Positions 11,100 through 64,000 are shown, numbered from the stretch's first letter. The stretch: 64,000 nt of DNA from an uncultured Chloroflexia bacterium (GCA_963829485.1 CAWHIK010000007.1:135753-199752); one strand, 5' to 3'. Notes: generated from the sequence alone by a model not told the origin. Numbers and translations are program-made.

Positions 11100-12308
11100 A
11101 TGCGCAAGCAAGTGTTTCTGGCGGGACTGCTGATCTCCGCTGCGATGCTGGCCTGCAGCCTGCCGTCGGGCAGTTCCACGCCCGAACCGACAATTCTGAA
11201 TCCAGAATCAGACCTGCCCAGCGACACACCCTCCGCCCCGCCGGACGAATCACCGACCGAGACACCGCCTGAGGCGCCTTCCGTTCTGCCGGCTGCGCTG
11301 TATTATCTGAACAACGACACCGGCGGGCGTCTGCAGATCTTCCGCCTCGATCCTGACGGCGTCACAGTACGCCAGCTGACCTCGGAGCCGGTTGAAATCC
11401 GCATGTACGATGTCTCGCCTCTTGACGGACGCCTGGCGTACATCGTCAACAACCAGCTGATCCTGATGAACGCGGACGGCTCCGGCCGTACCGTGCTGGT
11501 GGACGGCGGCCTGCTCGAGTCGGATATCAGCTACATTACGAATTCGCTCAGCCATCCGCGCTTCAGCCCGGACGGCCGCACGCTGGCCTACGGTATGAAC
11601 GGTGTGAATTTGTACGACCTCGCCAGCGGCACCTCGGTCAACCCGCTCACCAACATCCCGCGCGCAGGCGAGGGCTTCACCATCATCGAGGAGGGCTATT
11701 CCCCGGAGGAATTCTCACCGGATGGATCGAAGCTGCTGGTCAATGTCTTTTACTATGAAGCCGGCACTCTAGGGATTTATGATTTGGCCTCGGGCGCTTA
11801 CAACAAAGTCTCACGTCCTGAAGGCGGGCTGTTGTGCTGCAACTCCCAATGGACCTCGGACAGCAGTGCAGTGTACGTCGCCAGCTCGGTCATCGGCATG
11901 GTCGACCCGGGGATGTGGCGCTTCAATGCCGAGGACGGCTCCGGAACCACCCTGCTCCCGCCGACAAACGCGGACGGGTCCTTCAATTTTGCCGATTACC
12001 CTCTGCTGCCTCCCGACGGGCTGCTTCGCTTCTTCTTCGCCAACCTGCCCATCATTCCCGACGGCCACACGCCGTTGATGCTGGTCCAGTCCGCGCCGGA
12101 CGGCGTTACGGGCAGGACGATTATTTACCCCGAAACATTCACTAAAATGAACGAAGCTCTCTGGTCCTGGAACGGGATGCAAATCGTCGTGGTCGAAGCG
12201 ACCAATCCGGACATGTGGTACGGCGGTGCTGCGACGTTGTATCCACTTGACGGAGGCGCACCGGTCCCGCTCGTGCCCTTCGCGCAAGGCCTGCGCTGGG
12301 GACCGTAG
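11100..12308 (+). CDS. Lipoprotein with TolB-like/PD40 beta-propeller repeats
   Basis: Lipobox LACS, a Pro/Thr/Ser linker, and repeated FSPDG motifs. AGGAG RBS. Confidence 0.7.
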   Translation: MRKQVFLAGLLISAAMLACSLPSGSSTPEPTILNPESDLPSDTPSAPPDESPTETPPEAPSVLPAALYYLNNDTGGRLQIFRLDPDGVTVRQLTSEPVEIRMYDVSPLDGRLAYIVNNQLILMNADGSGRTVLVDGGLLESDISYITNSLSHPRFSPDGRTLAYGMNGVNLYDLASGTSVNPLTNIPRAGEGFTIIEEGYSPEEFSPDGSKLLVNVFYYEAGTLGIYDLASGAYNKVSRPEGGLLCCNSQWTSDSSAVYVASSVIGMVDPGMWRFNAEDGSGTTLLPPTNADGSFNFADYPLLPPDGLLRFFFANLPIIPDGHTPLMLVQSAPDGVTGRTIIYPETFTKMNEALWSWNGMQIVVVEATNPDMWYGGAATLYPLDGGAPVPLVPFAQGLRWGP

Positions 12309-12398: not shown

Positions 12399-12980
12399 TT
12401 ATTTCGATTTGGGAGGCGGTGCCACTCTCCAGTAATCTCCCCCGCCGCCCTCGCGCTGCATCAGCCCGCTGCCGACCAGTTCCCGCCGCAGGGACGCAGT
12501 GTCATCATGGAAGCGACCAAGGATTTCGTTGACTTCCTTCTCGCTGTAGCGTCTCCCCGGTTCGAACGACTTGACCACATAGCGCAGGATCGCGTCCAGC
12601 TTTTTGCGCTGCGCCGGCAGGGTCTTCAGCCGGCCGTTCGGACGTGAGTAATCCTTGACCACCTTGCGGTCGTAGGCATCCAGATCCACATCAGCGACAG
12701 AGTCAGACAGATCGAGCTGCGAGAAGAGCAGGCGCGTCTTCTTGAGCGCGGATTCGTCGAGGTAGTACATGCTGTAGTAGCCCTCCGCCTTGGCGCCGAC
12801 CAGCCCCACCTCCGACAGCTTCGAAAGGTGATGGGAAACGGTCGGAGGCTTGAGGTCGAGCAGGGCGGCCAGTTGCTCCACGCTGTAGGGCTGACGCGCG
12901 AGCAGTCCGATGATCTTCAACCGGTTGGCATCCGCCAGGGCTTTAAAGATTTCAAGGAGTTCGGCGTTGGGCTCAGTCAC
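12399..12980 (-). CDS. ArsR-family winged-HTH regulator fused to a DUF2087 domain (paralog 2)
   Basis: LEIFKALADANRLKIIGLL...SVEQLAALL HTH plus a C-terminal YSEKEVNEIL...LRRELV motif. GTG 12980 with a GGGAGG RBS, overlapping the upstream stop as GTGACTGA. Confidence 0.75.
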   Translation of the reverse strand: MTEPNAELLEIFKALADANRLKIIGLLARQPYSVEQLAALLDLKPPTVSHHLSKLSEVGLVGAKAEGYYSMYYLDESALKKTRLLFSQLDLSDSVADVDLDAYDRKVVKDYSRPNGRLKTLPAQRKKLDAILRYVVKSFEPGRRYSEKEVNEILGRFHDDTASLRRELVGSGLMQREGGGGDYWRVAPPPKSK

Positions 12981-13530
12981 GGGGCGCCTCCCGCCAGTAT
13001 TTCGAGCCGTCGCGCTCGCGCTTGAGCATGCCCGCGTCCACCAGGTCGCGCCGCAGTCCCGACACATCTGCGTTGAAACGCTTGAGGATCATATTGACTT
13101 CCTTCTCGGTGTAGACGACCTCGGGCGTGAAGGCGTTGATCAGGTAATCCAGGATCACACGCAGCTTGGCCGGCTGCTGGGGAATCTGCTTGATGGACCC
13201 GTCCGGGTTGAGGCAGGTCTTGAGCACCTTCCGTTTTTCAGCGTCAAGGTCCGGCGCGGGAGTATAGGACTCGCGCGGCTTGCCGGCGAACTGGCGGCGG
13301 GAGAGCGCCTCCAGACCCTCGGGGTCCAGTTCGTAGACGTCGTCCTTTTCTCGGACGATGCCGATATATGCCATGAACGCGAGATGGTTGTAGGCGTCCT
13401 TGAAGGGAATGCCCAGCTCGGTAGAGACTTCCTTGACGGAGGCCGGGTGCTGGGTGAGCATACCGATGATGCGCAGCCGATCGGCGTCGCTCATCGCTTT
13501 GACAAAGTCGAGCATTTCGTTCTGTTCCAT
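12973..13530 (-). CDS. ArsR-family winged-HTH regulator fused to a DUF2087 domain (paralog 1)
   Basis: 185 aa with the same architecture as the neighbour. GGAG RBS. Confidence 0.8.
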   Translation of the reverse strand: MEQNEMLDFVKAMSDADRLRIIGMLTQHPASVKEVSTELGIPFKDAYNHLAFMAYIGIVREKDDVYELDPEGLEALSRRQFAGKPRESYTPAPDLDAEKRKVLKTCLNPDGSIKQIPQQPAKLRVILDYLINAFTPEVVYTEKEVNMILKRFNADVSGLRRDLVDAGMLKRERDGSKYWREAPRD

Positions 13531-13541
13531 ATCATTTCTCC

Positions 13542-13577
13542 ATCTAATTAATTAGATAAGTATCGAATTGAATTATA
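13542..13577 (-). promoter_or_regulatory. -10 box TATAAT (13572-13577) plus a perfect 16-bp palindrome ATCTAATTAATTAGAT (13542-13557); candidate autoregulatory operator of the ArsR-like pair
   Basis: The palindrome sits between the -10 box and the RBS of gene 12973..13530. TGTATAAT is an extended -10. Confidence 0.45.
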
Positions 13578-13654
13578 CAACAATCTATAACCATGTCAAG
13601 GGCTTTTCCGGATGGACTTATAATTTTGGTTGAGGGAGACCTTACGGTCAAAAA

Positions 13655-13703
13655 CTGGGCGGGGTCACCCCCAAAAGGGTGCTTCGCAAAGACCCACGCC
13701 CAG
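13655..13703. other. Irregular nested hairpin (about 16 bp in three stacked stems) of unknown role
   Basis: CTGGGCG/CGCCCAG encloses GGGTC/GACCC, which encloses CACCC/GGGTG. It lies in an AT-rich intergenic island. Confidence 0.3.
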
Positions 13704-13719
13704 CGAGGGAAATTAGTGA

Positions 13720-13748
13720 TTGATTTCACGAAGTGGGATTGCTATACT
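13720..13748 (+). promoter_or_regulatory. sigma70-type promoter TTGATT-17 nt-TATACT
   Basis: Hexamers at 13720-13725 and 13743-13748. The next convincing plus-strand gene starts at 13988, implying a long leader. Confidence 0.4.
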
Positions 13749-13807
13749 GACAATATCTATTGGGGAGGTATCGCTTTATTATTAGTGACCGGACGGAATC
13801 TGAGCAG

Positions 13808-13897
13808 ATGTTCGACCTTTACACCAAGGTGGTCATCCGACTGGCTCTGACTTTTTTACTCTTCGGCTTGGTGATCCTGTATTTTGTTCTTCAATAA
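13808..13897 (+). CDS. Possible 29-aa hydrophobic small ORF (MFDLYTKVVIRLALTFLLFGLVILYFVLQ)
   Basis: ATG..TAA within the long leader and a single predicted TM helix. The RBS is weak, so support is low. Confidence 0.2.
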   Translation: MFDLYTKVVIRLALTFLLFGLVILYFVLQ

Positions 13898-16572: not shown

Positions 16573-17367
16573 TTATTTAATTTGCTCAAACCGCACGATG
16601 GGTAAATTCTTCGTGCAGTCCGAATAAGTATCGAAGGTGTTTACACCCGAAAGCGGCAGCCCGGCCTGGTCCAGCAGCTGGACGGTCATCGTGCCAGATG
16701 AATCCACCGGTTTGGAGCCGAGGGCGAACTCAAATCCGCTTTGCCCGTAGGCTGGCGCTGTACCGGAGACGGTCAACTGGCTATAGAATTTTCCGCCTGC
16801 GCTGCCTTCCAGCTTGACCACCATCCCTTTAAAGGGATTATTCTGCAGGTCAAAGACTGCCCCGCCGACCCCGAAGAAGTTGCAGCCCAACTCGGGATGC
16901 ATGATGGAACTATCCACATACTTGACGGTCACAGTGAAAGGCACGCCGGTCGGTTCAGGTGAGGGTGTCAGTGTATCCTCGGGCGTGCCCGTTTCGGTGG
17001 GCGTGTCCGTATACAGCTTCACAGGCGTATTGGTGAAGATGGGCGTAAAGGTCGGTCGCAGCGTGGGCTGCTCCACCGGCGGAGGCGTGGAGGAAGGCGT
17101 CCAGGTGGCTCCCAGCGAAAGAGGGGTCCAGGTAGCGGTCGGCAGTTCAAGCGGAGGAACGGGCGTGTTGGGCGGGAACGGGTTGAGCGCCAGTTGGGGA
17201 TTGGTGAACACCACGACAAAATAACAGCAGGAGCACAGCGTCAACAGCAGGACTCCGAGAGTCAGGACGTTCCAGAGTATTCGCTTGGTGTCGCGCGGTT
17301 TCCTCGGTTTATCCGGCGCCTGCGGCTCCGGCTGCTCAAGGATTTCAGGTTGTTCATTCGTGGTCAT
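16573..17367 (-). CDS. Membrane-anchored hypothetical protein with a Pro/Thr-rich linker and a C-terminal beta-rich domain
   Basis: 264 aa with an N-terminal TM helix. GGGAGTGAG RBS. No family recognised. Confidence 0.7.
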   Translation of the reverse strand: MTTNEQPEILEQPEPQAPDKPRKPRDTKRILWNVLTLGVLLLTLCSCCYFVVVFTNPQLALNPFPPNTPVPPLELPTATWTPLSLGATWTPSSTPPPVEQPTLRPTFTPIFTNTPVKLYTDTPTETGTPEDTLTPSPEPTGVPFTVTVKYVDSSIMHPELGCNFFGVGGAVFDLQNNPFKGMVVKLEGSAGGKFYSQLTVSGTAPAYGQSGFEFALGSKPVDSSGTMTVQLLDQAGLPLSGVNTFDTYSDCTKNLPIVRFEQIK

Positions 17368-17396
17368 AACTCACTCCCATGGATTCGACACGCCCA

Positions 17397-18290
17397 TCAT
17401 TGGACGATGACGATGGTGCTTTGGATACGCTGCTGTTCAACCCACTCACGCACTGCCTTGGACTGCAATGCCAGCAGGGCATCAGGCGACAACGGGCGGT
17501 TTTCGCGTTCCAGAATCTTGATAATGTGATATCCCAGGTCGGTCGCGATCACGTCGCTGACCTGCCCCGGCTGGAGGGCAAACGCTGCCTGCTCCACCGC
17601 TTTTTCGGGCAGGTAACCGCGTGGAAACCACCCTAAATCACCGCGCGTTACCGGATCGACCAGCACAGCAAACTCATCGAAATCGGTGCGATTCGCCTGG
17701 ATGTCGGTGAGCACCTGCCGCGCCCTTTCCTCATTATAGAACAAAATCTGCCGGACGTGAACCTGGTCTTTCGATTTTGCAATCTGCCCCGCCAGCTGGT
17801 CGCGCATCCATGCGGCGGCGATCGAGCGGCGCAGCGCGTCGCGGAAGGACTCGGGGGTGTAGTTATGGGCGGTCAACCACTGGTTGAGCGCGTCCTCGCC
17901 GCCGACCTCGCCGATCAGCTTGTCGATGCGCTCCTGGAGCAGGGTATCGTCCACGACAAAGCCGGACTGCTTCGCTCCCTGTGCCAGCAGGTACTGCGCG
18001 AACAGGTCGTCCAGCACGGTCGTAACGGCTTCCTCATCGCTGACGGTCTTCCCAAGCTCCGCCTGGGCGGCTTTGTAACGCTCCAACTCGGCGTTGAACT
18101 CCACCAAGGGGATGATCTCTCCGTTGACCGTGGCCTTGGCTGGAACAGGCGTCGGCGACGGGGTGCGGGTGGGCGGAACGGCCGTCGGGGTGGATTCTAC
18201 CGTCGGGGTGCCGCCGGAAAGGATCCCGCAGCCAGCCAAAAGGATGGTGACGAGAAAAAACATCGAAAAACGGGCGATTTTGAAAAGCAT
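17397..18290 (-). CDS. Parvulin-type peptidyl-prolyl cis-trans isomerase lipoprotein (PrsA/SurA-like)
   Basis: Lipobox LLAGC and a C-terminal PpiC domain (GDLGWFPRGYL...GYHIIKILE). Confidence 0.8.
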   Translation of the reverse strand: MLFKIARFSMFFLVTILLAGCGILSGGTPTVESTPTAVPPTRTPSPTPVPAKATVNGEIIPLVEFNAELERYKAAQAELGKTVSDEEAVTTVLDDLFAQYLLAQGAKQSGFVVDDTLLQERIDKLIGEVGGEDALNQWLTAHNYTPESFRDALRRSIAAAWMRDQLAGQIAKSKDQVHVRQILFYNEERARQVLTDIQANRTDFDEFAVLVDPVTRGDLGWFPRGYLPEKAVEQAAFALQPGQVSDVIATDLGYHIIKILERENRPLSPDALLALQSKAVREWVEQQRIQSTIVIVQ

Positions 18291-32141: not shown

Positions 32142-33159
32142 TCATCTAGAGTCCGTCAGCGGCGACTGTAGTTGCTCGATCTGTTTAAGCCGCTCGAAGA
32201 GCTTCCTCCCGCCGACCTTTTCAAGATATTCATTGAAGTCTTTCACGCCGAAGACATACTTTTCGAAATACTCCTTCGCGCCGGCCTCTGTCTTCGATTG
32301 CTCCAGCCAGCCGCGGATGTGAGGTTCGTCGAAATAGTAAAGGTAGGGCATCTGGCTGGGATGCGCGCCGAAGGGCACCTCGCACACCGCGTCCACCACG
32401 TAAAAGGGGATGGCCGTCTGGCGCGGGTCGCGGCGGGTCTGTTCCTCGTCGATGACCTGCTCTGCCGTGACGATCACGCGCCGGGCAGCGCGCGCCAGTT
32501 CGAAGTCCTCCACAAGGATGCCGTCGATCTGGGCGTTGCCGTACTTGTCGCAGCGCGGCACATGGAACAGGGCCACGTCCGGGTAGGCCGCCGGCAGCAG
32601 GGTGACAGGCTTTGCCGCTCCACGGGTCGCGCACCTGCTTGGCGGAACTCTTCTCGAAGGTGTCGGTGCCGCCCAGGTTGCGCACGGCGATGAAAGGCAC
32701 GCCCATCATCCCCGCCAGGAAGCGCCACTGGTAGCCGGCGTTGGAAAGCTCGGCGACGACCTTCACCTGCCCGCTCTCGACCGCGCGCCGGCCGGAGGGC
32801 GAGAGTCCGCGCAGCTCGTGGCCGAAGGAGTAGGCGCACTCGACGCGGCTGACGCAGCCCGCGCCGATCAGCAGGTCGATGTCATGTACGGCGGTCTTGC
32901 CGGCGACGGCCAGGTCGCGCCGCCCCTGCCGGATGATCTCGTAGACGAGGCTCATCGGCACGCGGACGTGCCCGAATCCGCCGAACGCGATGTAGTCGCC
33001 GTCATGGACATACTCCGCCACCGCTTGCGCCACGCTCATGCGTTTGTCGATCAAGCCGCGCGGCTTGTGATCGCGGATCCAGGCGCGATTCTCGTCCGGG
33101 TCATGCCAGCCGAGCAGCTCGCCGCTGCCTTCTGCAAGGATTTCCATGGACTTGGTCAT
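32142..33159 (-). pseudogene. CoA-transferase subunit A; frame broken near 32606-32616 as assembled
   Basis: ORF 32230..33162 (N-terminal, ...FEKSSAKQVRDPWSGK) continues as PVTLLPAAYPDVALFHVPRCDKYGNAQIDG in ORF 32142..32576. The break is at a short homopolymer. AAGGAGG RBS before ATG 33159. Confidence 0.8.
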
Positions 33160-33185
33160 CAAGCCTCCTTGGGAATGGTGAATCC

Positions 33186-33226
33186 ATTATACGGCAAGTG
33201 CCTCAGAGCGATTCACTCTGAGGCAC
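33186..33226 (-). promoter_or_regulatory. Palindrome + -10 module, copy 1 (GTGCCTCAGAG-N7-CTCTGAGGCAC then TTGCCGTATAAT)
   Basis: 11-bp arms at 33198-33226 and TATAAT at 33186-33191, 27 nt upstream of ATG 33159. Two further copies lie at 40692-40731 and 43351-43391. Confidence 0.5.
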
Positions 33227-40590: not shown

Positions 40591-40665
40591 TCAACATTGC
40601 GCGTGGACCATTTTTCCGAGCAGCTCGCCGCTGCCTTCTACAAGGATTTCCATAGACTTGGTCAT
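40591..40665 (-). other. 24-codon remnant ORF created by duplication of the CoA-transferase A 5' end (MTKSMEILVEGSGELLGKMVHAQC*)
   Basis: Part of the 117-nt block 40616-40731, which is homologous to 33110-33226. It retains the AAGGAG RBS. Confidence 0.5.
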
Positions 40666-40691
40666 CGGCTCTCCTTGGGAATGATTAAATC

Positions 40692-40731
40692 ATTCTATGG
40701 CAAGTGCCTCAGAGCGATTCATCTGAGGCAC
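40692..40731 (-). promoter_or_regulatory. Palindrome + -10 module, copy 2 (degenerate: TAGAAT, right arm 1 nt shorter)
   Basis: GTGCCTCAGA...TCTGAGGCAC at 40704-40731 and TAGAAT at 40692-40697. Confidence 0.45.
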
Positions 40732-57368: not shown

Positions 57369-58826
57369 ATGACCTGGAGAAGTCTCGACCCTAGCCAGCC
57401 CGGCGGCGTGCACCTGACGCGCCTGTCGGACGAACAATTTGAAAAGATCCACGCCGCCAGCCTCGAGATACTCGGGCGCATCGGCGTGCGCGTGGACCTG
57501 CCGGAGGCGCTCGACCTGCTGAAGAAAGGCGGCGCGCAGGTCGAAGGGAACATCGTCCGCGTCCCCCACAAGATGGTGGAAAGCGCGCTCCTCAGCGCGC
57601 CCAAGAAGGTCACGCTCCATAACCGGCACGGCGACCCGGTCATGCCGCTGGAGAATAATCGCTGCTTCTTCGGCCCCGGCTCGGACTGCCTGACGATCAT
57701 CGACCACCGCACGGACGAACGGCGCAAGCCCGTGCTTCAGGACGTGGCCGAGGGCAGCCGCCTGTGCGATGCCCTGCCTAATATCGACTTCGTCATGTCC
57801 ATGGTGCTGCCGTCCGACGTGGACGCGACGCTGGCGGACACCTACCAGATGGAAGCCATGCTGTCGAACACGGTCAAGCCCATCCTGTACGTGTCGTATG
57901 AATCACAGGGACTGGTGAACGCCGTCGAGATGGCGGAGGCCGTGGTCGGCGGCGCGGACGCGCTGCGCGAGAAACCCATCCTGACCTGCTACATCAACGT
58001 GGTGTCGGGCGCGGTGCACAACGCGGAGAGCCTGCGCAAGCTGCTGTATCTTTCGGGCAAGGGACTGCCGTCGCTGTACATCCCCGGCTCGAATGCGGGC
58101 GTCACCAGCCCGATGACGCAGGCCGGCGCGGTCGCGCTGGACACCGCCGGGGCGCTGCTGGGACTCGTCCTGGCGCAGTTGAAGCGGGAAGGCGCGCCGT
58201 ACATCATGTCCGCCATGGACCCGGCGGCGCTGGACATGCGCACCATGGTCTCGCCGTACGCCTACCCCGAGCGCGGATTCATCCGCTCGGTGTCGCAGCG
58301 CTACGGGCTGCCGACGCTCTCGCTGGCCGGCGCGACGGATTCCAAGGTGGTGGACGGTCAGGCCGCCGCGGAGGCCGCTCTCACGATGCTGGCGGACGTC
58401 TTCATGGGCGGCAATCTCATCCACGATCTGGGCTATCTCGAATTGGGACTCACCTACTCGTTCGCGCAGCTGGTCATCTGCGAGCAGATGGTGGACTGGA
58501 TCAAGGGTTTCTTCCGCGAGATCGAAGTGACCGACGAGACACTTGCGCTGGACGAGATCGAGCGCGCCGGCGCGGGCGGCATGTACCTCAGTTCCAAGCA
58601 TACGAAGAAGCACTTCAAGGAAACCTGGTACCCGGACCTGTTCGAGCGCGGGAGTTACACGGATTGGGAAAAGAAGGGCGGCCAGACCCTGCTGGAGCGC
58701 GCCTCAACGCGCGTGGAAAAGCTGCTGGCTGAACACCAGCCCGAGCCGCTGCCGGAGGATGTGAAGGTGAAGTTGAGGAAGATTGTGGAGAGGGCGAACC
58801 CCCACCCAGCCTTCCCCAAATCCTAG
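57369..58826 (+). CDS. MttB-superfamily methyltransferase, non-pyrrolysine type (quaternary-amine:corrinoid methyltransferase-like)
   Basis: 485 aa with MttB-like sequence throughout and no in-frame TAG. GGAGAA RBS. Confidence 0.9.
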   Translation: MTWRSLDPSQPGGVHLTRLSDEQFEKIHAASLEILGRIGVRVDLPEALDLLKKGGAQVEGNIVRVPHKMVESALLSAPKKVTLHNRHGDPVMPLENNRCFFGPGSDCLTIIDHRTDERRKPVLQDVAEGSRLCDALPNIDFVMSMVLPSDVDATLADTYQMEAMLSNTVKPILYVSYESQGLVNAVEMAEAVVGGADALREKPILTCYINVVSGAVHNAESLRKLLYLSGKGLPSLYIPGSNAGVTSPMTQAGAVALDTAGALLGLVLAQLKREGAPYIMSAMDPAALDMRTMVSPYAYPERGFIRSVSQRYGLPTLSLAGATDSKVVDGQAAAEAALTMLADVFMGGNLIHDLGYLELGLTYSFAQLVICEQMVDWIKGFFREIEVTDETLALDEIERAGAGGMYLSSKHTKKHFKETWYPDLFERGSYTDWEKKGGQTLLERASTRVEKLLAEHQPEPLPEDVKVKLRKIVERANPHPAFPKS

Positions 58827-58862
58827 GATGAGGGGGAGGCGGCCGCAGGCCGGAGGGGGTCA
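58801..58862. repeat. Short variant of the intergenic repeat module seen at 60489-60568
   Basis: CCCACCCAGCCTTCCCCAAATC...GGGGGAGG...GGAGGGGGTCAA parallels CCTACCCAGCCTTCGCC...CCCCAAATC...GGGGGAGG...GGAGGGGATCAA. It overlaps the last codons of the MttB gene. Confidence 0.4.
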
Positions 58863-58922
58863 AAACTGGGCAGGGTCAGAGACCCGCGCCTAGCGAGCTG
58901 GTTGTAACGTGGAACTGGCAAA

Positions 58923-59468
58923 TCATGAATTTGCTAGTTCCAATTTGACCGCATAACTATCATCTTTTATGTGAAAACTAAGATCAGGGTAATTCGAGGT
59001 TACTTCTATCGGAAATGAAATGCTGCAACAATTTTTTCGCATCATGACTGTCTTCACGAAGACTTTAAATAGTTTTCTCAATAAGTAAGACATCGCTCCA
59101 AGAACCACTAGTAATATTATCCAAAGGATTATGGCTAATATATCCTCTGAATAACCTGCCAAAAACAATAGATATCCAGAAATTACCCATAACAGTGGTG
59201 GAATAATCCAAAGAATGATTAATACAACATTATCGAACGCTAAATGAAAGGCACATCTCTTACAAGTCGGAACGGTCCATGAGAGGTACGTTGTTAATCC
59301 TCCACCAAGAACTGGCTTGTGCTCCAATCGATAATGATGATTACCATCAATACCAAGTCCACAACAAGGACATTGCTGGGGCCAATTAATATTTTGTAAA
59401 TATATTTTTTCAGGGGAAATTCCCAAAGCGTCACTTTGACGGGACATCTGGACACTGAAGGTTTTCAT
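58923..59468 (-). CDS. Hypothetical membrane protein with an N-terminal CxxC...CxxC zinc-ribbon-like motif
   Basis: CPCCG...CKRC followed by 3-4 TM helices. GAGGAG RBS before ATG 59468. Strongly AT-rich. Confidence 0.6.
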   Translation of the reverse strand: MKTFSVQMSRQSDALGISPEKIYLQNINWPQQCPCCGLGIDGNHHYRLEHKPVLGGGLTTYLSWTVPTCKRCAFHLAFDNVVLIILWIIPPLLWVISGYLLFLAGYSEDILAIILWIILLVVLGAMSYLLRKLFKVFVKTVMMRKNCCSISFPIEVTSNYPDLSFHIKDDSYAVKLELANS

Positions 59469-59573
59469 TGTATCTTCTCCTCTAGCAGGCAAACTGGTGG
59501 GTACTCCTAGCGATTTGCTACCTGTCCAGTATTTTCAATTGAGACGGCGATAAAGGAGGATTGTAAAGACTAC

Positions 59574-59617
59574 TAAATATTATGATACAAAACAAGGCAG
59601 ACCGCGCGACCGCTGCC
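59574..59617 (-). repeat. Hairpin + CATAAT junction repeat, copy A
   Basis: Minus strand reads GGCAGCGGTCGCGCGGTCTGCC-TTGTTTTGTATCATAATATT. It sits between the hydrolase stop and the next gene. Confidence 0.45.
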
Positions 59618-59620
59618 ATT

Positions 59621-60376
59621 TCATTGAGTTTGTGCATCAAGAAAATCAAGAATACGTGGGATGGTCAAGTCGCCACGCACAAGAAGATCAAGATGGCTCA
59701 ACCCAGTCAGGGTTATTAACGATGAATTTGAAGTCGCGTGTTCGATTTTTCTTAACAGTTCCATTTCAACGCCTATAAAATCGCTTGTCAAAATAAGACT
59801 GAAAAGGTTAATAGTTTCTGAAAGGTTGTTGATATCATCAATTATCCTGGGAATATCATCTGCAATGCCACTGGAAAGAGATAGTAGTGCTATTTTGTCA
59901 TTGTTCAAAAACCGGGCTCTATTGTTAGGTGTGAGTGCTAATTGAGAGGTTAGGGTTTCTATATTATTTACAAAATCTCGAATTACCTTTGAGTCATCCG
60001 GACCCGGAACACCATCTAATAGAATCATTGACTGGATTCTTTCGGGATATTTTCTCAAAAAGCGATAGACGATCCAACCTCCAAACGAGAAACCCAGGAC
60101 ATGACAGAGACCAATTCCCAATTCATCCAATACAGCAACGACATCCTGAACATACTTATCTATGTAATACGAATTCGGATCATAGGGTTTGTCACTTTGC
60201 CCGTGTCCTCGCAAATCAATCAGAATAAGTTTGTATTTTCTTCCCAATCTCGCTACGTAGCCAAATTCAATCCAGTCTTCGCAACTACCAAAAACCCCAT
60301 GAAGCAACACGATGGGTGGTCCTTCACCCACTACTTTGTAATAAATATTTATACCTTGATTGTTAATTTTTGCCAT
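59621..60376 (-). CDS. Alpha/beta-fold hydrolase
   Basis: HG oxyanion motif (LLHGVFG) and nucleophile elbow GFSFGG. GAGGAAG RBS. AT-rich. Confidence 0.85.
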   Translation of the reverse strand: MAKINNQGINIYYKVVGEGPPIVLLHGVFGSCEDWIEFGYVARLGRKYKLILIDLRGHGQSDKPYDPNSYYIDKYVQDVVAVLDELGIGLCHVLGFSFGGWIVYRFLRKYPERIQSMILLDGVPGPDDSKVIRDFVNNIETLTSQLALTPNNRARFLNNDKIALLSLSSGIADDIPRIIDDINNLSETINLFSLILTSDFIGVEMELLRKIEHATSNSSLITLTGLSHLDLLVRGDLTIPRILDFLDAQTQ

Positions 60377-60440
60377 GAGTCTTCCTCAACCGCAGATGTG
60401 GCAGGTAATGGTTGTGTTATAGGGAAGGGCAAATTGTCAA

Positions 60441-60625
60441 GACGATACAATGATTATGGCACAAAACGGGTCAGACCGCACGACCGACCCCTACCCAGCC
60501 TTCGCCAGTTGCATGCGAAGCGCGTCCCCCAAATCTTTTAAGATTTGGGGGAGGTGTCCTACGGACGGAGGGGATCAAGATCTGCGCACAGCGCAAGTCA
60601 GTTGCAGTCGAATTTTGGGCGGCGT
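60441..60625 (-). repeat. Junction repeat, copy B (long form with extra hairpins)
   Basis: GACGATACAATGATTATGGCACAAAAC core at 60441-60467, a 12-bp perfect hairpin TCCCCCAAATCT/AGATTTGGGGGA at 60525-60552, and a GCGCACAGCGCAAGTCAGTTGC segment shared with copy D. Confidence 0.5.
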
Positions 60626-60631
60626 CAGAAA

Positions 60632-61270
60632 TTATTCGGTCTGTAATTTCTGGAAACGGGCATAGACATAGGGTCGCACATCACCGGACGGCATACGATA
60701 GGTATAGTCCATACTCTCCACAAGTCTGAACCCGTCTCCGAAAAATTCACACAGGCCATCCACGTTGTATCTTTGCACAGGCAGGCCGCTGCATTTTTCC
60801 GCCCCATCCAAAGCGAAGGTGGCCATGATAACAAATCCGCCCGGCATGACGGCTTTTTGCAGCAGGGAATGGTACGTCCGCCTGTGTTGTTCTTCAGTAA
60901 GAAAATGAAACACGGCTCTGTCGTGCCAGACAGCGATATTTTGGAGTTGCAGCACAGCGGTTGGATTGGTAATATCATCCACCATCCAGTGCACCTGGGC
61001 GGCCTGCTCTTTGGTTAGCAGGGTTTTGGCCGTTTCCAGGGCAACATCGCTGATATCGACGGCATAAAGATTATCGTAGCCAAGTTCCAGCAGATTGGAA
61101 ATAAGGACCGATGTGCCCGATCCAATATCCACAATCGGGGACTGCCGGGGAACCGCACACTGTTCAATAAGCTGAATGGATGGGGACGACCTGGATTCAT
61201 ACCAGCCCAGTTGAGTGATGGGATCCTGGGTATATTTCCTGTTCCAATGCTCTTTCAATACCGATGTCAT
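60632..61270 (-). CDS. Class I SAM-dependent methyltransferase
   Basis: Motif I VDIGSGTSVL. ATG 61270 is preferred; the alternative TTG 61309 is possible. Confidence 0.85.
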   Translation of the reverse strand: MTSVLKEHWNRKYTQDPITQLGWYESRSSPSIQLIEQCAVPRQSPIVDIGSGTSVLISNLLELGYDNLYAVDISDVALETAKTLLTKEQAAQVHWMVDDITNPTAVLQLQNIAVWHDRAVFHFLTEEQHRRTYHSLLQKAVMPGGFVIMATFALDGAEKCSGLPVQRYNVDGLCEFFGDGFRLVESMDYTYRMPSGDVRPYVYARFQKLQTE

Positions 61271-61342
61271 GAGTGTCTTCAACTTTCTTTTTAATTGGCC
61301 GCCTGGCAAGTATTTATCCGCTGCGGTGACAGCCCTCGCCGC

Positions 61343-62299
61343 CTACGGGATATCCTTCTGGCACTGGAGCCATTCCGGGTCACGGGCATAGCCCAGCTTG
61401 TTGAAGAGCGCCTGCATCGGGGCGTTATGAATGGCGGTACAGGTCTTGAGCACCGGATAACCGTGCTCCCGTGCGTAGGCAATACCGCGCAGCTGCATCG
61501 CCAGCCCAATGCCGCGCTTGCGTTCCTCCCGGCGGACGCCGAGCAGCCCCCCGAGCAGTGTGTCGCCGTTGGGCTCCTTTCCCAGCTCCCGCAGGCCGAG
61601 GTACTCGTCCCCGCGCACGGCGACAAAATAGGCGTCGTGCAGGATGGTGGGATCGTTCATGCCCCATTTCACCCATTCGTCGAAGGAAGGCCTCTCAAGG
61701 CGGGTATCCTCCTGCGGGACATCCTCAACAGCTTCCCAGTACAGGTCGTAGATTTTTCGGTCCCGGTCCGGGTCGGATTCAAGCTGGCGCAGGGTCCTGA
61801 TCACGATACCCTGCTGCCGCAGTTTTGGCTCCAGCTCCGCATAGGGACTCGGGTCGAAGGAAGCGATATCCAGATGGACGGGGGTCTCACGGAAGGCTTC
61901 ATAGAATCCGCGTTTTTGCAGAAAAGGGAAACCCTGGGGCAGGTTCGTGAAGGCGTCCGCACGAAGGACGCGGGGGTCGAAAACCTGCAGGCCTTCCATA
62001 ACACATTCGTAGAGCTTCGAGCCGATCCCTCTCCGCTGGTATTCCGGCCGCACCTCGACATTGACATAGAATCGCTGCGGGTGATAGTCATCCATTCCCT
62101 GCCCGTAGGAAGCCCAGCCGACCGCGACCCCATCTTCGCTGGCGACCCAGCGCTGGTATTTACATTTGGGGTTGCGGTTCCGGTCGGCCTGTTCCCACCC
62201 TTCCGGGGTGCGAGGACGCTCCGGCCAGACAATATTCAGGCTGTTGTGGATATCCACGAAGGACGGGTAGTCATCGGGTGTAAACGTATGGATGTCCAT
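61343..62299 (-). CDS. GNAT-family acetyltransferase with two acetyltransferase-like halves
   Basis: 318 aa with the motifs RRGIGSKLY and RKRGIGLAMQL. Confidence 0.85.
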   Translation of the reverse strand: MDIHTFTPDDYPSFVDIHNSLNIVWPERPRTPEGWEQADRNRNPKCKYQRWVASEDGVAVGWASYGQGMDDYHPQRFYVNVEVRPEYQRRGIGSKLYECVMEGLQVFDPRVLRADAFTNLPQGFPFLQKRGFYEAFRETPVHLDIASFDPSPYAELEPKLRQQGIVIRTLRQLESDPDRDRKIYDLYWEAVEDVPQEDTRLERPSFDEWVKWGMNDPTILHDAYFVAVRGDEYLGLRELGKEPNGDTLLGGLLGVRREERKRGIGLAMQLRGIAYAREHGYPVLKTCTAIHNAPMQALFNKLGYARDPEWLQCQKDIP

Positions 62300-62392
62300 G
62301 GTTTTTTCATCCTATCATGGCGAAAAAGAGATATTTCCATCCATTACCTGGTACAGATCCATGATCAATCTCCCCTGCTGTAAATTAGAGAA

Positions 62393-62455
62393 GACGACAC
62401 AATGATTATGGCACAAAGCAAATCAGGCTGCGTCTGAAAAACCGGCGCGGTCTGT
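62393..62455 (-). repeat. Junction repeat, copy C (its hairpin half lies inside the 3' end of the upstream CDS)
   Basis: GACGACACAATGATTATGGCACAAAGC core plus CTGAAAAACCGGCGCGGTCTG, which matches copy D. Confidence 0.45.
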
Positions 62456-63034
62456 TTCCTTTGCATCCTTATCCTTCCGGCGCTTGAGCATGATCCGCTG
62501 CAGCCGCACGATCCGCCCCCGATTCCAGCGCTGCAACATTACCGGATAGACATTGAACAGGGTGGTAAAAGCTACCAGCCAGATCCCGATGAAAACCTGC
62601 CCGGCCAGGGTAAAAAAGGCAGCCACAGCGAGCGAAATTCCAGCGGCAAGGATGTGTACGCCTTCCACGGCGTTCATGTCCCTCAACAACCGATCCATAT
62701 CCGGCCCGCCCGACCTGACCTTGATGTTTGGGTTCAGCCAGCCCAGCGGCGTATACCGCAGCACCCAGCGAACAGCACCCAGTCCCACCCGATCGTATAT
62801 CCTGCCTTCGCGTTCCCAATACGCGAGGCGGAACCACTCCGGGTCCAGCCGGACAAAGATCCTGCCGGTCACCGCCGCAACGAACGCCATAATGAGCCAG
62901 GTCAGGGAAAATGCGAAGATCAACGGGTGGCGGTCAGGCTGGAAAACCGTCATGACCAATCCAATGCCGACCGCAACCGTCAGGGCGGTGAAGATGACCA
63001 GATACTTCGCAGTTGCTTCAGGATTACCTGTCAA
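62423..63034 (-). CDS. Polytopic membrane protein; the C-terminal NVYPVMLQRWNRGR motif resembles the CrtO (glycosyl-4,4'-diaponeurosporenoate acyltransferase) family
   Basis: 203 aa with a TTG start. The family assignment is tentative (motif recall only). Confidence 0.55.
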   Translation of the reverse strand: MTGNPEATAKYLVIFTALTVAVGIGLVMTVFQPDRHPLIFAFSLTWLIMAFVAAVTGRIFVRLDPEWFRLAYWEREGRIYDRVGLGAVRWVLRYTPLGWLNPNIKVRSGGPDMDRLLRDMNAVEGVHILAAGISLAVAAFFTLAGQVFIGIWLVAFTTLFNVYPVMLQRWNRGRIVRLQRIMLKRRKDKDAKETDRAGFSDAA

Positions 63035-63156
63035 GTGACAACCGCCTTACCCGTGCCATTGGCTCGAAATGAATGCCAAAAGGTGAGCAGCCTGTCCTTG
63101 GCGCTCTCTTTTCCCACCGCGCCTACAGAGCCCAAAGGCCTGTCCCGCTGATGGGC

Positions 63157-63270
63157 GAACGACACAATCATTATGACATAAAACAAAAAGACCGCGCCTG
63201 AAAACCGGCGCGGTCTGACGAAAGAACAGGTCAACCTGGAGCGCGCAGCGCAAGTCGGCTGCGTGCGGTG
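63157..63270 (-). repeat. Junction repeat, copy D, including a canonical terminator (63181-63216)
   Basis: Minus strand reads AGACCGCGCC-N8-GGCGCGGTCT + TTTTGTTTT, then ATGTCATAATGATTGTGTCG. Upstream, GCGCGCAGCGCAAGTCGGCTGCG is shared with copy B. Confidence 0.5.
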
Positions 63271-63340: not shown

Positions 63341-64000
63341 TCATGAAGGGAGCGATGCTTTTTCACTCTCCGCCTGTTCGATCAGCCCCCGGCGGATCTT
63401 GCGGTAGGTGATGATCGGTCCGTCACCCTGGATCAATTTCTCGCCGATGTTCAGGTCGGAGCGCTTGGGCTGCTGGGTGATGACCACAACCTTGTCCTGG
63501 CGCTCGATATACAGGTTGCTCAGGCTGCCGAAGAAGTTGACGATATTCCTGATCACGGGAGTGCGCATCTTGTGATAGAAGCGCAAGTACATAAGCGTAT
63601 TCTCATCATCGATGGGTGCAAAGGCGATCATCACGCGCACATCATTGCTGATCCAGTTATGCCAGACATTGGGAAAGCGGAACTGCAGGGACGAGTGGCG
63701 GTCCGGTTCGGTTATCTGGGAGGCTTTGAGCAGCGTCTGCCCGTTATCCGTTTCGTTAAAGACCCAGATATCCAGCAGGTTATCCCCCGGGTAGCGGGCT
63801 TCGGCCCGGCACAGCGGTCCATTCACCACAGTTTTGTTCCCGCGCCCGATGGTGTTGTAATGCACGAACGGGACATGAACCACATCCAGTTGGTTTTCGA
63901 TCGCGCGCGAGTAATGAGTAGCCCAATGATCGCGCAGGCTGCCGAAAACCATATCCTCGCCGATACTCTCGAAGAAGGGCAGTTCCGGGTAGGACTCGCG
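63341..64000 (-). CDS. Rieske-type non-heme iron oxygenase, catalytic (C-terminal) part; the 5' end lies beyond the window
   Basis: ENQLDVVHVPFVH matches the E/D-x3-D-x2-H-x4-H iron motif. The frame stays open upstream of Met 63952 to the window edge. Confidence 0.75.
   Translation of the reverse strand, partial: RESYPELPFFESIGEDMVFGSLRDHWATHYSRAIENQLDVVHVPFVHYNTIGRGNKTVVNGPLCRAEARYPGDNLLDIWVFNETDNGQTLLKASQITEPDRHSSLQFRFPNVWHNWISNDVRVMIAFAPIDDENTLMYLRFYHKMRTPVIRNIVNFFGSLSNLYIERQDKVVVITQQPKRSDLNIGEKLIQGDGPIITYRKIRRGLIEQAESEKASLPS

What the first reader, a model, noticed from the sequence alone, without database searches (positions are those of the whole stretch)
58801..63270. Same-strand array of AT-richer accessory genes punctuated by a modular hairpin + CATAAT junction repeat that also forms gene 3' ends
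The minus-strand genes run in this order: Rieske oxygenase, CrtO-like membrane protein, double GNAT, SAM-methyltransferase, alpha/beta hydrolase, Zn-ribbon membrane protein.

Four junctions carry copies of one module: 59574-59617, 60441-60625, 62393-62455 and 63157-63270. In minus-strand sense it is a GC-rich hairpin containing GACCGCGC, then TTTTGT(G/A)YCATAAT(C/G)ATTGTGTCGTC. That is a terminator followed at once by a -10-like box, with conservation continuing about 15 nt past the box.

Copies B and D also share a GCGCRCAGCGCAAGTCRGYTGC segment. Copy B shares a further submodule with 58801-58862.

The last 11 codons of the CrtO-like gene (ETDRAGFSDAA*) and the last codons of the MttB gene are encoded by repeat sequence.

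The pattern looks either like promoter-bearing cassettes that were shuffled or acquired, or like a very stereotyped terminator-promoter junction that is copied between loci.
Basis: seen in the sequence. Interest (0 to 1): 0.6.

Follow-up and report, generated by a model that had tools for sequence, protein, structure and literature searches.

The report
Reused terminator-promoter junction in gene array
In one Chloroflexota genus, the genes next to mttB are separated by old copies of one short terminator-plus-promoter sequence, while the genes between the copies differ from species to species, so the locus behaves like an integron cassette array without being one.

Summary
Copies A-D sit where stated, and two more junctions (E, F) lie just past the window end.

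From 28 distinct copies the consensus is [CAGACCGCGCC-loop-]GCGCGGTCTG-NN-TTGTTTTGTGyCATAATnATTgTgtcgtcTTGcc. I read this as an intrinsic terminator fused to a TRTGn-extended -10 promoter.

The module is restricted in three ways:
- In G000 it occurs only within 5.6 kb.
- It was found in 4 of 5 species of the genus and in 0 of 116 other genomes of the family.
- All copies lie in one variable locus beside mttB, in direct orientation.

Gene order around the copies is permuted between species (R-CrtO-N-M, CrtO-N-L-X-R, M-L, L-M).

It is not an integron. It has no attC features and no adjacent recombinase. The genus's true attC profile does not match it, although real integrons exist elsewhere in these genomes.

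Duplication borders are ragged: one copy carries the first ~6 codons of a neighbouring gene, and G001 has truncated mttB tails. Copies within a genome are old paralogues.

Best reading (confidence 0.55): promoter and terminator reuse, with the modules acting as portable homology for Campbell-type insertion, deletion and shuffling. A dedicated cassette recombination system is not excluded (about 0.12).

This scan has noted similar integrase-less arrays on other DNA.

The parts
63158..63262 (-). Junction D, between the Rieske gene and the CrtO-like gene. Parts: submodule m1 (63241-63262); full hairpin AGACCGCGCC-GGTTTTCA-GGCGCGGTCT (63189-63216); U-tract; core TTTATGTCATAATGATTGTGTCGTT (63158-63182), with CATAAT at 63170-63175.
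   Evidence: (10-bp stem, 8 G-C pairs, tail TTTTGTTTTA), and 48 (nhmmer E = 1.5e-13). It is 86% identical over 116 nt to a junction in G002/G004 that has different genes on both sides.
62393..62456 (-). Junction C, between the CrtO-like gene and the double GNAT gene. It has a degenerate hairpin (5' arm CAGACCGCGCC intact, 3' arm GACGCAGCCTG) that is read as the last 11 codons of the CrtO-like ORF. The core TTTGTGCCATAATCATTGTGTCGTC lies at 62393-62417, with CATAAT at 62405-62410.
   Evidence: (E = 8.7e-17). Its orthologue L021_73 is 92% identical, and the 25-nt core is 25/25 identical.
62343..62392 (-). Leader copied together with junction C: TTCTCTAATTTACAGCAGGGGAGATTGATC followed by ATGGATCTGTACCAGGT. 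This is the ribosome-binding site and the first ~6 codons of an LCM-type methyltransferase gene that is absent from this genome. It survives as a decaying pseudo-uORF.
   Evidence: Alignment A2. The same ~110 nt stands in front of the intact LCM gene in L021 and L009. In L021 the frame stops at codon 5, so it is not a conserved uORF.
60441..60481 (-). Junction B core, between the SAM methyltransferase and the hydrolase. It consists of the 3' arm GTGCGGTCTG (60472-60481), ACCCGT, and TTTGTGCCATAATCATTGTATCGTC (60441-60465), with CATAAT at 60453-60458. There is no 5' arm.
   Evidence: E = 1.7e-15.
60486..60605 (-). Upstream half of junction B. It holds submodule m1 (60584-60605) and a ~100-nt REP-like nested palindrome: GATCCCCTCCG..CCTCCCCCAAATC..GATTTGGGGG..GGCTGGGTAGGGGTC. 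The palindrome replaces the 5' arm of the hairpin.
   Evidence: (D3, D7, D8, I4). Related palindromes occur in both orientations in relatives and in other genera of the family.
59568..59607 (-). Junction A, between the hydrolase and the Zn-ribbon membrane protein. It consists of the 3' arm GCGCGGTCTG (59598-59607), CCTTGT, and the variant core TTTGTATCATAATATTTAGTAGTC (59568-59591), with CATAAT at 59579-59584.
   Evidence: E = 3.9e-10. The same right-hand variant ATTTAGTAGTYTTTACAA occurs in L021_2125, between different genes.
58798..58861 (-). REP-like palindrome at the convergent end of mttB. Its right arm GGCTGGGTGGGGGT encodes, on the + strand, the last ~9 codons of mttB.
   Evidence: (D3, D8, I1).
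62423..63034 (-). CrtO-like membrane protein (203 aa from a TTG start; the start is uncertain). GC3 is 0.71.
   Evidence: (PF18927, 4.3e-16).
61343..62299 (-). Double GNAT acetyltransferase (318 aa), GC3 0.75. In L021 and L009 the same gene is followed by a module and the LCM gene. Here it is fused directly to the leader of the SAM methyltransferase.
60632..61270 (-). SAM-dependent methyltransferase (212 aa), GC3 0.57. Its neighbours differ in G001 (module-MT-LCM) and in L030 (LCM-module-MT-module).
59621..60376 (-). Alpha/beta hydrolase (251 aa), GC 0.39 and GC3 0.35. It looks like a captured foreign gene. About 35 nt of its own 5' UTR and about 12 nt of its 3' flank came with it.
   Evidence: A 76%-identical homologue (L032) in another organism has no module but has a similar leader.
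58923..59468 (-). 181-aa Cys-rich membrane protein with no family match. GC 0.37, GC3 0.32.
63341..64000 (-). 3' part of the Rieske/VanA-type oxygenase gene, which runs to window-equivalent 64375. In G000, G003 and L021 it has its own F-type promoter behind the same hairpin or 3' arm.
57369..58826 (+). mttB-family gene. It is the conserved convergent flank of the variable locus in all five species and in L030.

Best explanation
The repeat is a genus-specific junction module made of two functional halves.

1. **Terminator.** An 11-bp G+C stem (CAGACCGCGCC / GGCGCGGTCTG), a 7-11-nt loop and the U-tract TTGTTTTGT.
2. **Promoter.** The U-tract runs directly into an extended -10 promoter, TGTGyCATAAT (TRTGn plus hexamer). 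This is followed by a conserved initial transcribed stretch, nATTGTGTCGTCTTGCC.

Each accessory gene, or small gene group, in the variable locus beside mttB is therefore its own insulated transcription unit.

The copies descend from one ancestral junction and are old. They are kept by selection on the ~35 central nucleotides. Because they lie in direct orientation, they serve as portable homology. Three kinds of event follow:
- Circles or segments that carry a module integrate by a single Campbell-type crossover or by unequal crossing-over.
- Loop-out between two modules deletes the genes between them.
- Illegitimate joins trim the edges.

The outcome is a locus where the junctions persist while genes are captured, lost and reordered.

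What is shown: the anatomy, the distribution, the ragged duplication borders and the permuted gene orders. What is inferred: terminator and promoter activity, and the recombination route.
For: **Anatomy**
- The consensus comes from 28 distinct copies.
- The 11-bp stem is paired in at least 95% of cells at 10 of its 11 pairs; the eleventh has five A.C mismatches. This is from 21 full copies. Folding energy is -18 to -33 kcal/mol, directly before the U-tract.
- Start codons lie as close as 15-35 nt after CATAAT (copy E, L016, G001_10763). This fixes CATAAT as a -10 box rather than a -35 box.
- TGnTATAAT is enriched in front of ORFs in this genome: 62% against about 33% for controls.

**Restriction**
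- nhmmer finds only 5 copies in 3.7 Mb, all within C7:195300-200855.
- The pattern occurs in 4 of 5 species of the genus and in 0 of 116 other genomes of the family.
- Only 2 records match among 185,579 species representatives.
- All copies on a contig share one orientation.

**Cassette-like behaviour**
- Relatives match the junctions but mostly not the genes.
- Gene orders: G000 R-CrtO-N-M-Hyd-Zn; L021 CrtO-N-L-X-R; G001 M-L-ORF200-EVE; L030 GNATx-L-M.

**Non-site-specific spread**
- The C/C' duplication runs from the 5' hairpin arm to codon ~6 of the LCM gene.
- G001 carries two truncated mttB 3' ends that bracket inserted blocks.
- Left and right halves of modules recombine at more than one point, at the GCGCGGTCTG/U-tract and at CATAAT.
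- The right-hand borders are ragged.
- Some junctions have lost the module altogether.

**No recombinase**
- Pfam finds no recombinase in or beside the arrays.

**Capture of a foreign gene into an existing slot**
- The AT-rich hydrolase has homologues elsewhere that lack the module.

**Precedent in this genome**
- Another promoter module in this window was copied together with a 5' coding stub.
- The general phenomenon is described in PMC3575422.
Against: - Terminator and promoter activity are therefore inferred from sequence only.
- The 3' arm GCGCGGTCTG is conserved even in the ~45% of copies that lack a 5' partner. Stem selection alone does not explain this.
- C at -12 (CATAAT, never TATAAT) and the near-palindrome GnCAYAAT-n-ATTRTGnC hint at a sequence-specific protein, either a regulator or a recombinase. 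This invariance is partly due to how copies were found.
- Two G004 copies are followed by convergent genes, so their promoter half has no gene to drive.
- Copies within a genome share only 60-75% identity outside the core. That is poor substrate for RecA-dependent recombination today.
- No excised circle or strain-level polymorphism was observed.
Confidence: 0.55

Rival explanations
1. The module is the recombination site of a dedicated, non-integron cassette system. A recombinase encoded elsewhere would recognise the hairpin/GCGCGGTCTG and the CATAAT-n-ATTRTG palindrome. It would insert or excise circular cassettes, each of which brings its own leader and ends in terminator plus promoter.
For: - The locus has integron-like hallmarks. 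There is one locus per genome, the repeat is genus-specific, and all copies lie in direct orientation. Content varies between species, and the cargo is typical (GNATs, methyltransferases, hydrolases, HicAB, orphans).
- GCGCGGTCTG and CATAAT are conserved beyond what a terminator or promoter needs.
- L021_2125 looks like the left half of one junction joined to the right half of another, exactly at CATAAT.
- The hydrolase insert hugs the module borders.
- The genus does encode integron integrases and remnants of them.
Against: - No recombinase lies in or next to any of the arrays examined.
- Joints fall at several different positions, and duplications run into coding sequence.
- The same gene carries different left halves in different contexts: GNAT2 in L021 against L009.
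- The copies are old, with no recent identical pairs.
- The palindrome leaves only a 1-3-nt spacer, which is too short for a tyrosine-recombinase core.
Confidence: 0.12
2. The copies are kept mainly as a shared operator. A repressor or activator would bind the 17-bp near-palindrome that overlaps the -10 box (and/or GCGCGGTCTG at -35 to -26). The whole array would then be one regulon. Spread by recombination would be secondary.
For: - ATT.T(G) downstream of the -10 box and GCGCGGTCTG upstream are conserved in at least 85% of copies.
- C at -12 is invariant.
- The 7-1-7 layout yCATAATnATTrTGt resembles Fur-family boxes. This resemblance is recalled from memory.
Against: - The palindrome occurs nowhere else in the genome. 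CATAATNATTRTG has 2 hits, both in the array.
- No regulator gene is conserved beside the arrays.
- The Fur-family gene at C5:9094 has a different box, ATAATTATTAT.
- The right half-site is imperfect in most copies.
- This rival is compatible with the best explanation rather than exclusive of it.
Confidence: 0.15
3. The array is a decayed integron (CALIN), and the hairpin is a degenerate attC site.
For: - An IntI-like C-terminal remnant (..[30 protein letters not shown]..) lies about 14 kb away, at C7:215148-215358.
- The cargo and the single orientation resemble those of sedentary integrons.
Against: - The module has no R''/R' AAC...GTT boxes and no extrahelical bases. Its stem is 11 bp and perfect.
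- A profile built from the genus's real attC sites (G003:C7) hits C7:216381-216483 and C3:3856-6622 in G000. It hits nothing in the arrays.
- That attC copy lies on the far side of the intI remnant and points away from this locus.
- Each unit here has its own promoter, unlike typical integron cassettes.
Confidence: 0.03
4. The module is a small non-autonomous mobile element (MITE or REP/REPIN-like) that transposes into intergenic DNA.
For: - It is short, structured, repeated and intergenic.
- It is associated with a REP-like palindrome.
- Y1 (RAYT/IS200-like) transposase genes exist in the genome.
Against: - Copies occur in one locus only: 5-6 in 5.6 kb and none in the other 3.7 Mb.
- There are no terminal inverted repeats and no target-site duplications.
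- All copies lie in one orientation.
- Copies are old and not homogenised.
Confidence: 0.03

Closest known systems
Promoter reuse / putative mobile promoters (Nijveen, Matus-Garcia and van Passel 2012, PMC3575422)
   Same: One promoter-bearing sequence stands in front of non-homologous genes. Copies arise without an obvious transposase. The same genome shows a second case of a promoter copied together with a 5' coding stub (window 33110-33226 and 40616-40731).
   Different: Here the reused unit is a terminator-promoter fusion. It forms nearly every junction of one contiguous array, it is restricted to one locus and one genus, and it coincides with cassette-like turnover of the genes between the copies.
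Sedentary chromosomal integrons and CALINs (attC cassette arrays)
   Same: There is a single locus, a lineage-specific structured repeat between genes, and one orientation. Gene content varies between relatives. The cargo consists of GNATs, methyltransferases, toxin-antitoxin pairs and orphans.
   Different: There are no attC features, no attI and no adjacent IntI. The true attC profile of the genus does not match. The borders are ragged. Every unit carries its own promoter and terminator rather than depending on Pc.
Minimal mobile elements of Neisseria, and the general model of gene exchange by homologous recombination in conserved flanks (own knowledge, not checked in a paper here)
   Same: Different genes occupy the same slot between conserved sequences in different strains, without any dedicated recombinase.
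   Different: In Neisseria the conserved flanks are housekeeping genes. Here they are ~60-110-nt repeated regulatory modules, so many slots lie in tandem.
Correia (CREE), BOX/RUP and REP/BIME intergenic repeats that carry promoters or terminators (own knowledge)
   Same: These are short structured intergenic repeats that supply transcription signals and mark rearrangement points.
   Different: Those families are dispersed genome-wide in tens to hundreds of copies. This module is confined to one locus with about 3-6 copies per genome.
Integrase-less terminator-promoter cassette arrays noted by this scan on other DNA (e1-4551196, e1-1220770)
   Same: A stack of unrelated small gene units is bounded by a repeated terminator/promoter or hairpin junction. 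The stack differs in every related genome and no recombinase is in sight.
   Different: The sequences, hosts and anchor genes are unrelated. Those notes were not verified here.

Membership tests
Intrinsic (Rho-independent) terminator | A G+C-rich stem-loop followed directly by a U-tract | tested here: met
   The family consensus has an 11-bp stem, a 7-11-nt loop and the tract TTGTTTTGT. In the window only copy D meets the scan's criteria. Copies A, B and C are degenerate.
Intrinsic (Rho-independent) terminator | Transcript 3' ends at the U-tract | not testable with these tools
Sigma-70 extended -10 promoter | TGn (TRTGn) directly upstream of a TAnnnT-type hexamer, placed upstream of a gene | tested here: met
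   TGTGyCATAAT is present in 26-28 of 28 copies. About 25 of 29 copies have a co-oriented ORF starting 15-270 nt downstream. TGnTATAAT is enriched upstream of ORFs in this genome. The hexamer has C instead of T at -12.
Sigma-70 extended -10 promoter | A mapped transcription start about 7 nt downstream | not testable with these tools
   No RNA data were available.
Integron attC site / cassette array | R'' (RYYYAAC) and R' (GTTRRRY) boxes, an imperfect bulged hairpin with extrahelical bases, length 57-141 nt | tested here: not met
   There are no AAC/GTT boxes at the stem ends, and the stem is a perfect 11 bp.
Integron attC site / cassette array | Similarity to the attC sites of the lineage's own integron | tested here: not met
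   The attC profile built from G003:C7 gave no hit in L015, L011 or L013. It did hit C7:216381 and C3 in G000.
Integron attC site / cassette array | An adjacent intI gene and attI site | tested here: not met
   Only a ~70-aa IntI remnant was found, 14 kb away and facing another array. No recombinase lies beside the arrays in G001 or G004.
Putative mobile promoter / promoter reuse | Highly similar upstream sequence in front of non-homologous genes | tested here: met
   At least 15 unrelated gene families lie downstream of copies.
Xer/dif-type site (pdif modules) | Two ~11-bp arms separated by a 6-8-bp central region | tested here: not met
   CATAA-(T n A)-TTRTG leaves only a 1-3-nt spacer. The resemblance to dif was recalled from memory.
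MITE / REP-type mobile repeat | Dispersed copies at many loci | tested here: not met
   All significant nhmmer hits fall within 5.6 kb of one contig.
Fur-family operator (7-1-7 box) | The same box upstream of other regulon genes, including the regulator's own gene | tested here: not met
   CATAATNATTRTG occurs only in the array. The Fur-family gene at C5:9094 has ATAATTATTAT instead.
Known RNA families (Rfam 15) | A match at the gathering score | tested here: not met
   Searches returned only two tRNAs, and those lie elsewhere.

The most novel reading that the evidence does not exclude
The junction module would be the attachment site of an undescribed, integron-independent gene-capture platform in Chloroflexota. 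A trans-encoded recombinase would recombine cassettes at the GCGCGGTCTG hairpin and the CATAAT-n-ATTRTG palindrome. The site itself would supply every captured gene with a terminator and an extended -10 promoter, which would solve the expression problem that integron cassettes have. Together with similar integrase-less arrays seen by this scan in unrelated phyla, it would point to a general, unrecognised class of promoter-bearing cassette arrays.
Probability: 0.12. Interest if true: 0.85.

Novelty: new variant of a known kind. Interest (0 to 1): 0.5.

Why it matters
The locus shows how a bacterium can run a plug-in site for accessory genes without an integron. A reused terminator-promoter junction gives each newcomer insulated expression, and it also provides the homology that lets units be added, removed and reordered.

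If this is general, it would have three consequences:
- It would be a simple, overlooked route of gene capture and of promoter evolution. This scan has noted comparable arrays on unrelated DNA.
- It would help annotate hypervariable islands in metagenome-assembled genomes.
- It would offer a compact natural insulator-promoter part for Chloroflexota, where genetic tools are scarce.

If a dedicated recombinase were found, this would be a new kind of cassette system.

Tried and rejected
1. **Integron/attC.** No AAC/GTT boxes are present. An attC profile built from the real integron of G003 does not hit the arrays. The intI remnant near the locus belongs to another array that faces away.
2. **Xer/dif-like site.** The central spacing is wrong.
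3. **Fur-type operator.** The motif is absent elsewhere in the genome.
4. **Sigma-54 (TGGCAC-N5-TTGC) in the upstream GGCACTTGCC string.** The spacing is wrong. That string is a recurrent ordinary promoter (GGCACTTGCCGTATAATGGATTCA) of this genome.
5. **ECF-type -35/-10.** There is no GGAAC.
6. **TTGCCA/TTGACA after the core as the real -35 box.** Rejected because start codons lie only 12-20 nt behind it in some copies.
7. **The REP-like palindrome as an att site that bounds islands.** It occurs in both orientations and in other genera, so this is not supported. However, it does flank the AT-rich two-gene block as an imperfect direct repeat.
8. **Concerted evolution or gene conversion among copies.** The nearest neighbour of every copy lies in another genome.
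9. **The module travelling with the hydrolase gene.** Homologues elsewhere lack it.
10. **Rfam.** No match.
12. **Exact-protein look-up of MttB for strain variants.** Nothing is on record.
13. **NCBIfam for the orphan proteins.** Nothing found.

Full report
**1. The observation**

The window is G000:C7:135753-199752. Read on the minus strand, the region holds seven features in order:
- a Rieske/VanA-type oxygenase;
- a CrtO-like membrane protein;
- a double GNAT;
- a SAM methyltransferase;
- an alpha/beta hydrolase;
- a 181-aa Cys-rich membrane protein;
- the convergent mttB gene.

The pattern TTTGTRYCATAATNATTGTRTCGTC hits B (60441-60465), C (62393-62417) and D (63158-63182). None were seen in 100 shuffles. 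The repeat finder recovers the A/B/C and B/C/D families. It also recovers the B/D submodule (60584-60605 against 63241-63262) and the submodule that B shares with 58798-58863.

The CrtO-like ORF ends KETDRAGFSDAA* inside the repeat. The last ~9 codons of mttB are also repeat sequence.

In the whole assembly (3.72 Mb, 92% complete), a profile of the module finds only five significant copies, all in C7:195300-200855. One of them, E, lies just past the window end, in front of a small P-loop protein. A sixth junction, F, stands in front of the Rieske gene. F keeps GCGCGGTCTG but has a different promoter. So the repeat is real, far beyond chance, and strictly local.

**2. Anatomy**

I collected 29 copies (28 distinct) from four sources:
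- G000;
- three congeners;
- one short 'Nitrospirae' MAG contig, probably misbinned;
- ten metagenome contigs.

Their consensus is [CAGACCGCGCC - 7-11-nt loop -] GCGCGGTCTG NN TTGTTTTGTG y CATAAT n ATT g T g t c g t c TTGcc.

In 21 copies with both arms, the 11-bp stem is paired in at least 95% of cells at 10 of its 11 pairs; the eleventh has five A.C mismatches. Covariation is slight. The stem folds at -18 to -33 kcal/mol immediately before the U-tract. This is the form of an intrinsic terminator.

The U-tract runs into TGTG-y-CATAAT, a TRTGn-extended -10 element. Start codons can lie only 15-35 nt behind CATAAT (copy E, L016, G001_10763). CATAAT is therefore the -10 box, and the TTGCCA/TTGACA that follows it cannot be a -35 box. 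TGnTATAAT is enriched in front of ORFs in this genome.

The hairpin and the promoter can be separated. The same hairpin occurs alone as a terminator (G001_3650, G004_13883). It also occurs in front of the Rieske gene's own F-type promoter in G000, G003 and L021.

Within G000 itself only D keeps the complete hairpin. In A, B, E and F the 5' arm is replaced by a REP-like nested palindrome or is lost, and C is degenerate. The 3' arm GCGCGGTCTG stays conserved in all of them. I cannot fully explain that last point.

One caveat applies to the conservation figures. Most copies were found with patterns that required CATAAT, so the invariance of that hexamer is partly by construction.

**3. Distribution**

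The combined arm-plus-box pattern occurs in 4 of 5 species of the genus and in none of 116 other genomes from 35 other genera of the family. Reversed controls gave zero matches. Among one genome for each of 185,579 species, only a congener (a Chloroflexia-labelled MAG) and the 1.8-kb 'Nitrospirae' contig match the core.

In every genome the copies lie in one locus next to mttB, and all copies on a contig point the same way.

**4. What varies**

Blast of the locus against relatives matches the junctions and mttB but mostly not the genes. Protein comparison gives permuted orders:

| Source | Gene order |
|---|---|
| G000 | kinase-like, Rieske, CrtO, GNAT2, MT, hydrolase, Zn-ribbon protein |
| L021 | CrtO, GNAT2, LCM, X, Rieske |
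| L009 | GNAT2, LCM |
| G001 | MT, LCM, ORF200, EVE |
| L030 | DUF4386 ... GNATx, LCM, MT |
| G004 | serpin, HicAB, then PolX and BNR on the other strand, M29 peptidase, NDH2 |

Junction D is 86% identical over 116 nt to a G004 junction whose genes differ on both sides.

Beyond the array, at least 14 kb of G001 has no counterpart in G000. The array therefore sits at the edge of a large plasticity zone.

Composition is heterogeneous (GC3):

| Gene | GC3 |
|---|---|
| Zn-ribbon protein | 0.32 |
| hydrolase | 0.35 |
| MT | 0.57 |
| CrtO | 0.71 |
| Rieske | 0.73 |
| GNAT2 | 0.75 |
| mttB | 0.88 |

The hydrolase has 59-76%-identical homologues in other organisms that carry no module. G000 keeps about 35 nt of that gene's own leader and about 12 nt of its 3' flank. 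The gene was therefore dropped into an existing slot.

**5. How the copies spread**

- The borders are ragged. The segment shared by the junction upstream of GNAT2 and the junction upstream of LCM runs from the 5' hairpin arm to about codon 6 of LCM. The apparent uORF after junction C in G000 is the decaying stub of a gene that G000 no longer has.
- The anchor gene shows the same signature. G001 has two truncated copies of the last 100-125 nt of mttB, and these bracket inserted blocks. A single crossover of a circle that carries a homologous fragment leaves exactly this pattern.
- Left and right halves of junctions are recombined at more than one place. One is near GCGCGGTCTG and the U-tract (D-type left with F-type right in L021). 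The other is at CATAAT (L021_2125).
- Some junctions have lost the module through gene-to-gene fusion.
- The nearest relative of every copy lies in another genome. The copies are old paralogues kept by selection on the central ~35 nt. They are neither recent insertions nor homogenised by gene conversion.
- No recombinase lies in or beside the arrays.

Together this favours promoter/terminator reuse driven by homologous and illegitimate recombination. It argues against a fixed-site mechanism.

**6. Alternatives tested**

*Integron.* The genus does have integrons. G003 has an intact IntI (456 bits against TIGR02249, cut-off 265) with cassettes of about 800 bp and attC-like repeats. G000 has an IntI C-terminal remnant 14 kb from the array, plus attC-like repeats at C7:216381 and on C3. 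The attC profile does not hit any of the arrays. The remnant's attC lies on its far side, and the module has no attC features. The locus is therefore not an integron or a CALIN.

*Other candidates.* Xer/dif, Fur box, sigma-54, ECF, MITE/REP and Rfam families were each tested and not met.

*What remains open.* A dedicated recombinase or a regulator acting on GCGCGGTCTG and on the near-palindrome GnCAYAAT-n-ATTRTGnC is still possible. The conservation of the unpaired 3' arm and of C at -12 is the main reason to keep these rivals alive.

**7. Comparison with what is known, and novelty**

Functionally the closest description is promoter reuse (PMC3575422). An earlier follow-up in this scan found a second case of it in this very window, with a 5' coding stub.

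In behaviour the locus resembles a sedentary integron, but it fails every defining test. This scan has noted comparable integrase-less terminator-promoter arrays on unrelated DNA; I did not verify those notes.

I class the locus as a new variant of a known kind, of moderate interest. It would rise sharply if a fixed crossover point or a cognate protein were found.

Noticed in passing
L038:1148-1358 (G000:C7:215148-215358, outside the window) and L038:2382-2484: A C-terminal remnant of an integron-type integrase (..HTFRHSFTTHLLQNGYDI / [30 protein letters not shown]..), frameshifted and truncated. About 1 kb beyond it lies an attC-like repeat and a run of small same-strand ORFs pointing away from the mttB locus. 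This looks like a decayed integron or CALIN. More attC-like repeats lie at G000:C3:3856-6622.
   Followed up: partly
L046:2900-13860 (G003:C7): An apparently intact chromosomal integron in a congener. intI is at 12919-13860 (TIGR02249, 456 bits). Upstream there is an array of cassettes of about 800 bp with repeats that end in GTTGGGC or GTTAGCC.
   Followed up: partly
L011:8109-8260 and L011:6925-7024 (G001:C8): Two truncated extra copies of the last 100-125 nt of mttB, each with part of the REP-like palindrome. They bracket an alcohol-dehydrogenase gene and a block holding 210-aa and 1070-aa orphan proteins. This is the signature of successive single-crossover insertions at the 3' end of mttB.
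   Followed up: partly
L009 (JAAXXJ010000514.1): This 1.8-kb contig, binned as a Nitrospirae MAG, carries GNAT2 (93% aa identity), a perfect module copy and the LCM gene of this Chloroflexota genus. It is probably misbinned.
   Followed up: no
window 58798-58861 and 60486-60585; L013:15270-15430; L014 (G003): A REP-like nested palindrome (GACCCCCTCC..CCTCCCCCAAATCC..GGATTTGGGGGAGG..GGGTGGGGGTC). It occurs in both orientations, at low copy number, and also in other genera of the family. Two Y1 (RAYT/IS200-type) transposase genes exist in G000 (C7:329081, C2:264877).
   Followed up: partly
window 33190-33215 and 40700-40725; L015:10187-10209, 11583-11605 and 12570-12592; upstream of the hairpin in G001, G003 and L009 junctions: A second recurrent promoter string, GGCACTTGCCGTATAATGGATTCA. 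It stands in front of many unrelated genes. In decayed form it also lies directly upstream of the terminator hairpin in several junctions.
   Followed up: partly
G000:C5:9001-9375: A Fur-family regulator gene preceded by an AT-rich region that holds ATAATTATTAT, a PerR/Fur-type 7-1-7 box. This is probably autoregulation.
   Followed up: no
L013:7301-12239 and 16816-18021 (G004:C9): The array in G004 holds a HicA/HicB pair, a PolX and a BNR protein on the opposite strand between two modules, and a DDE transposase next to mttB.
   Followed up: no
L015:12668-12873 (G000:C7:~211667-211872): Two adjacent tRNA genes lie inside the variable region upstream of the array.
   Followed up: no
G000:C7:614271-614305: The only other place in the genome with the same hairpin stem (CAGACCGCGC..GCGCGGTCTG plus a T-run). 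It has no promoter box.
   Followed up: no
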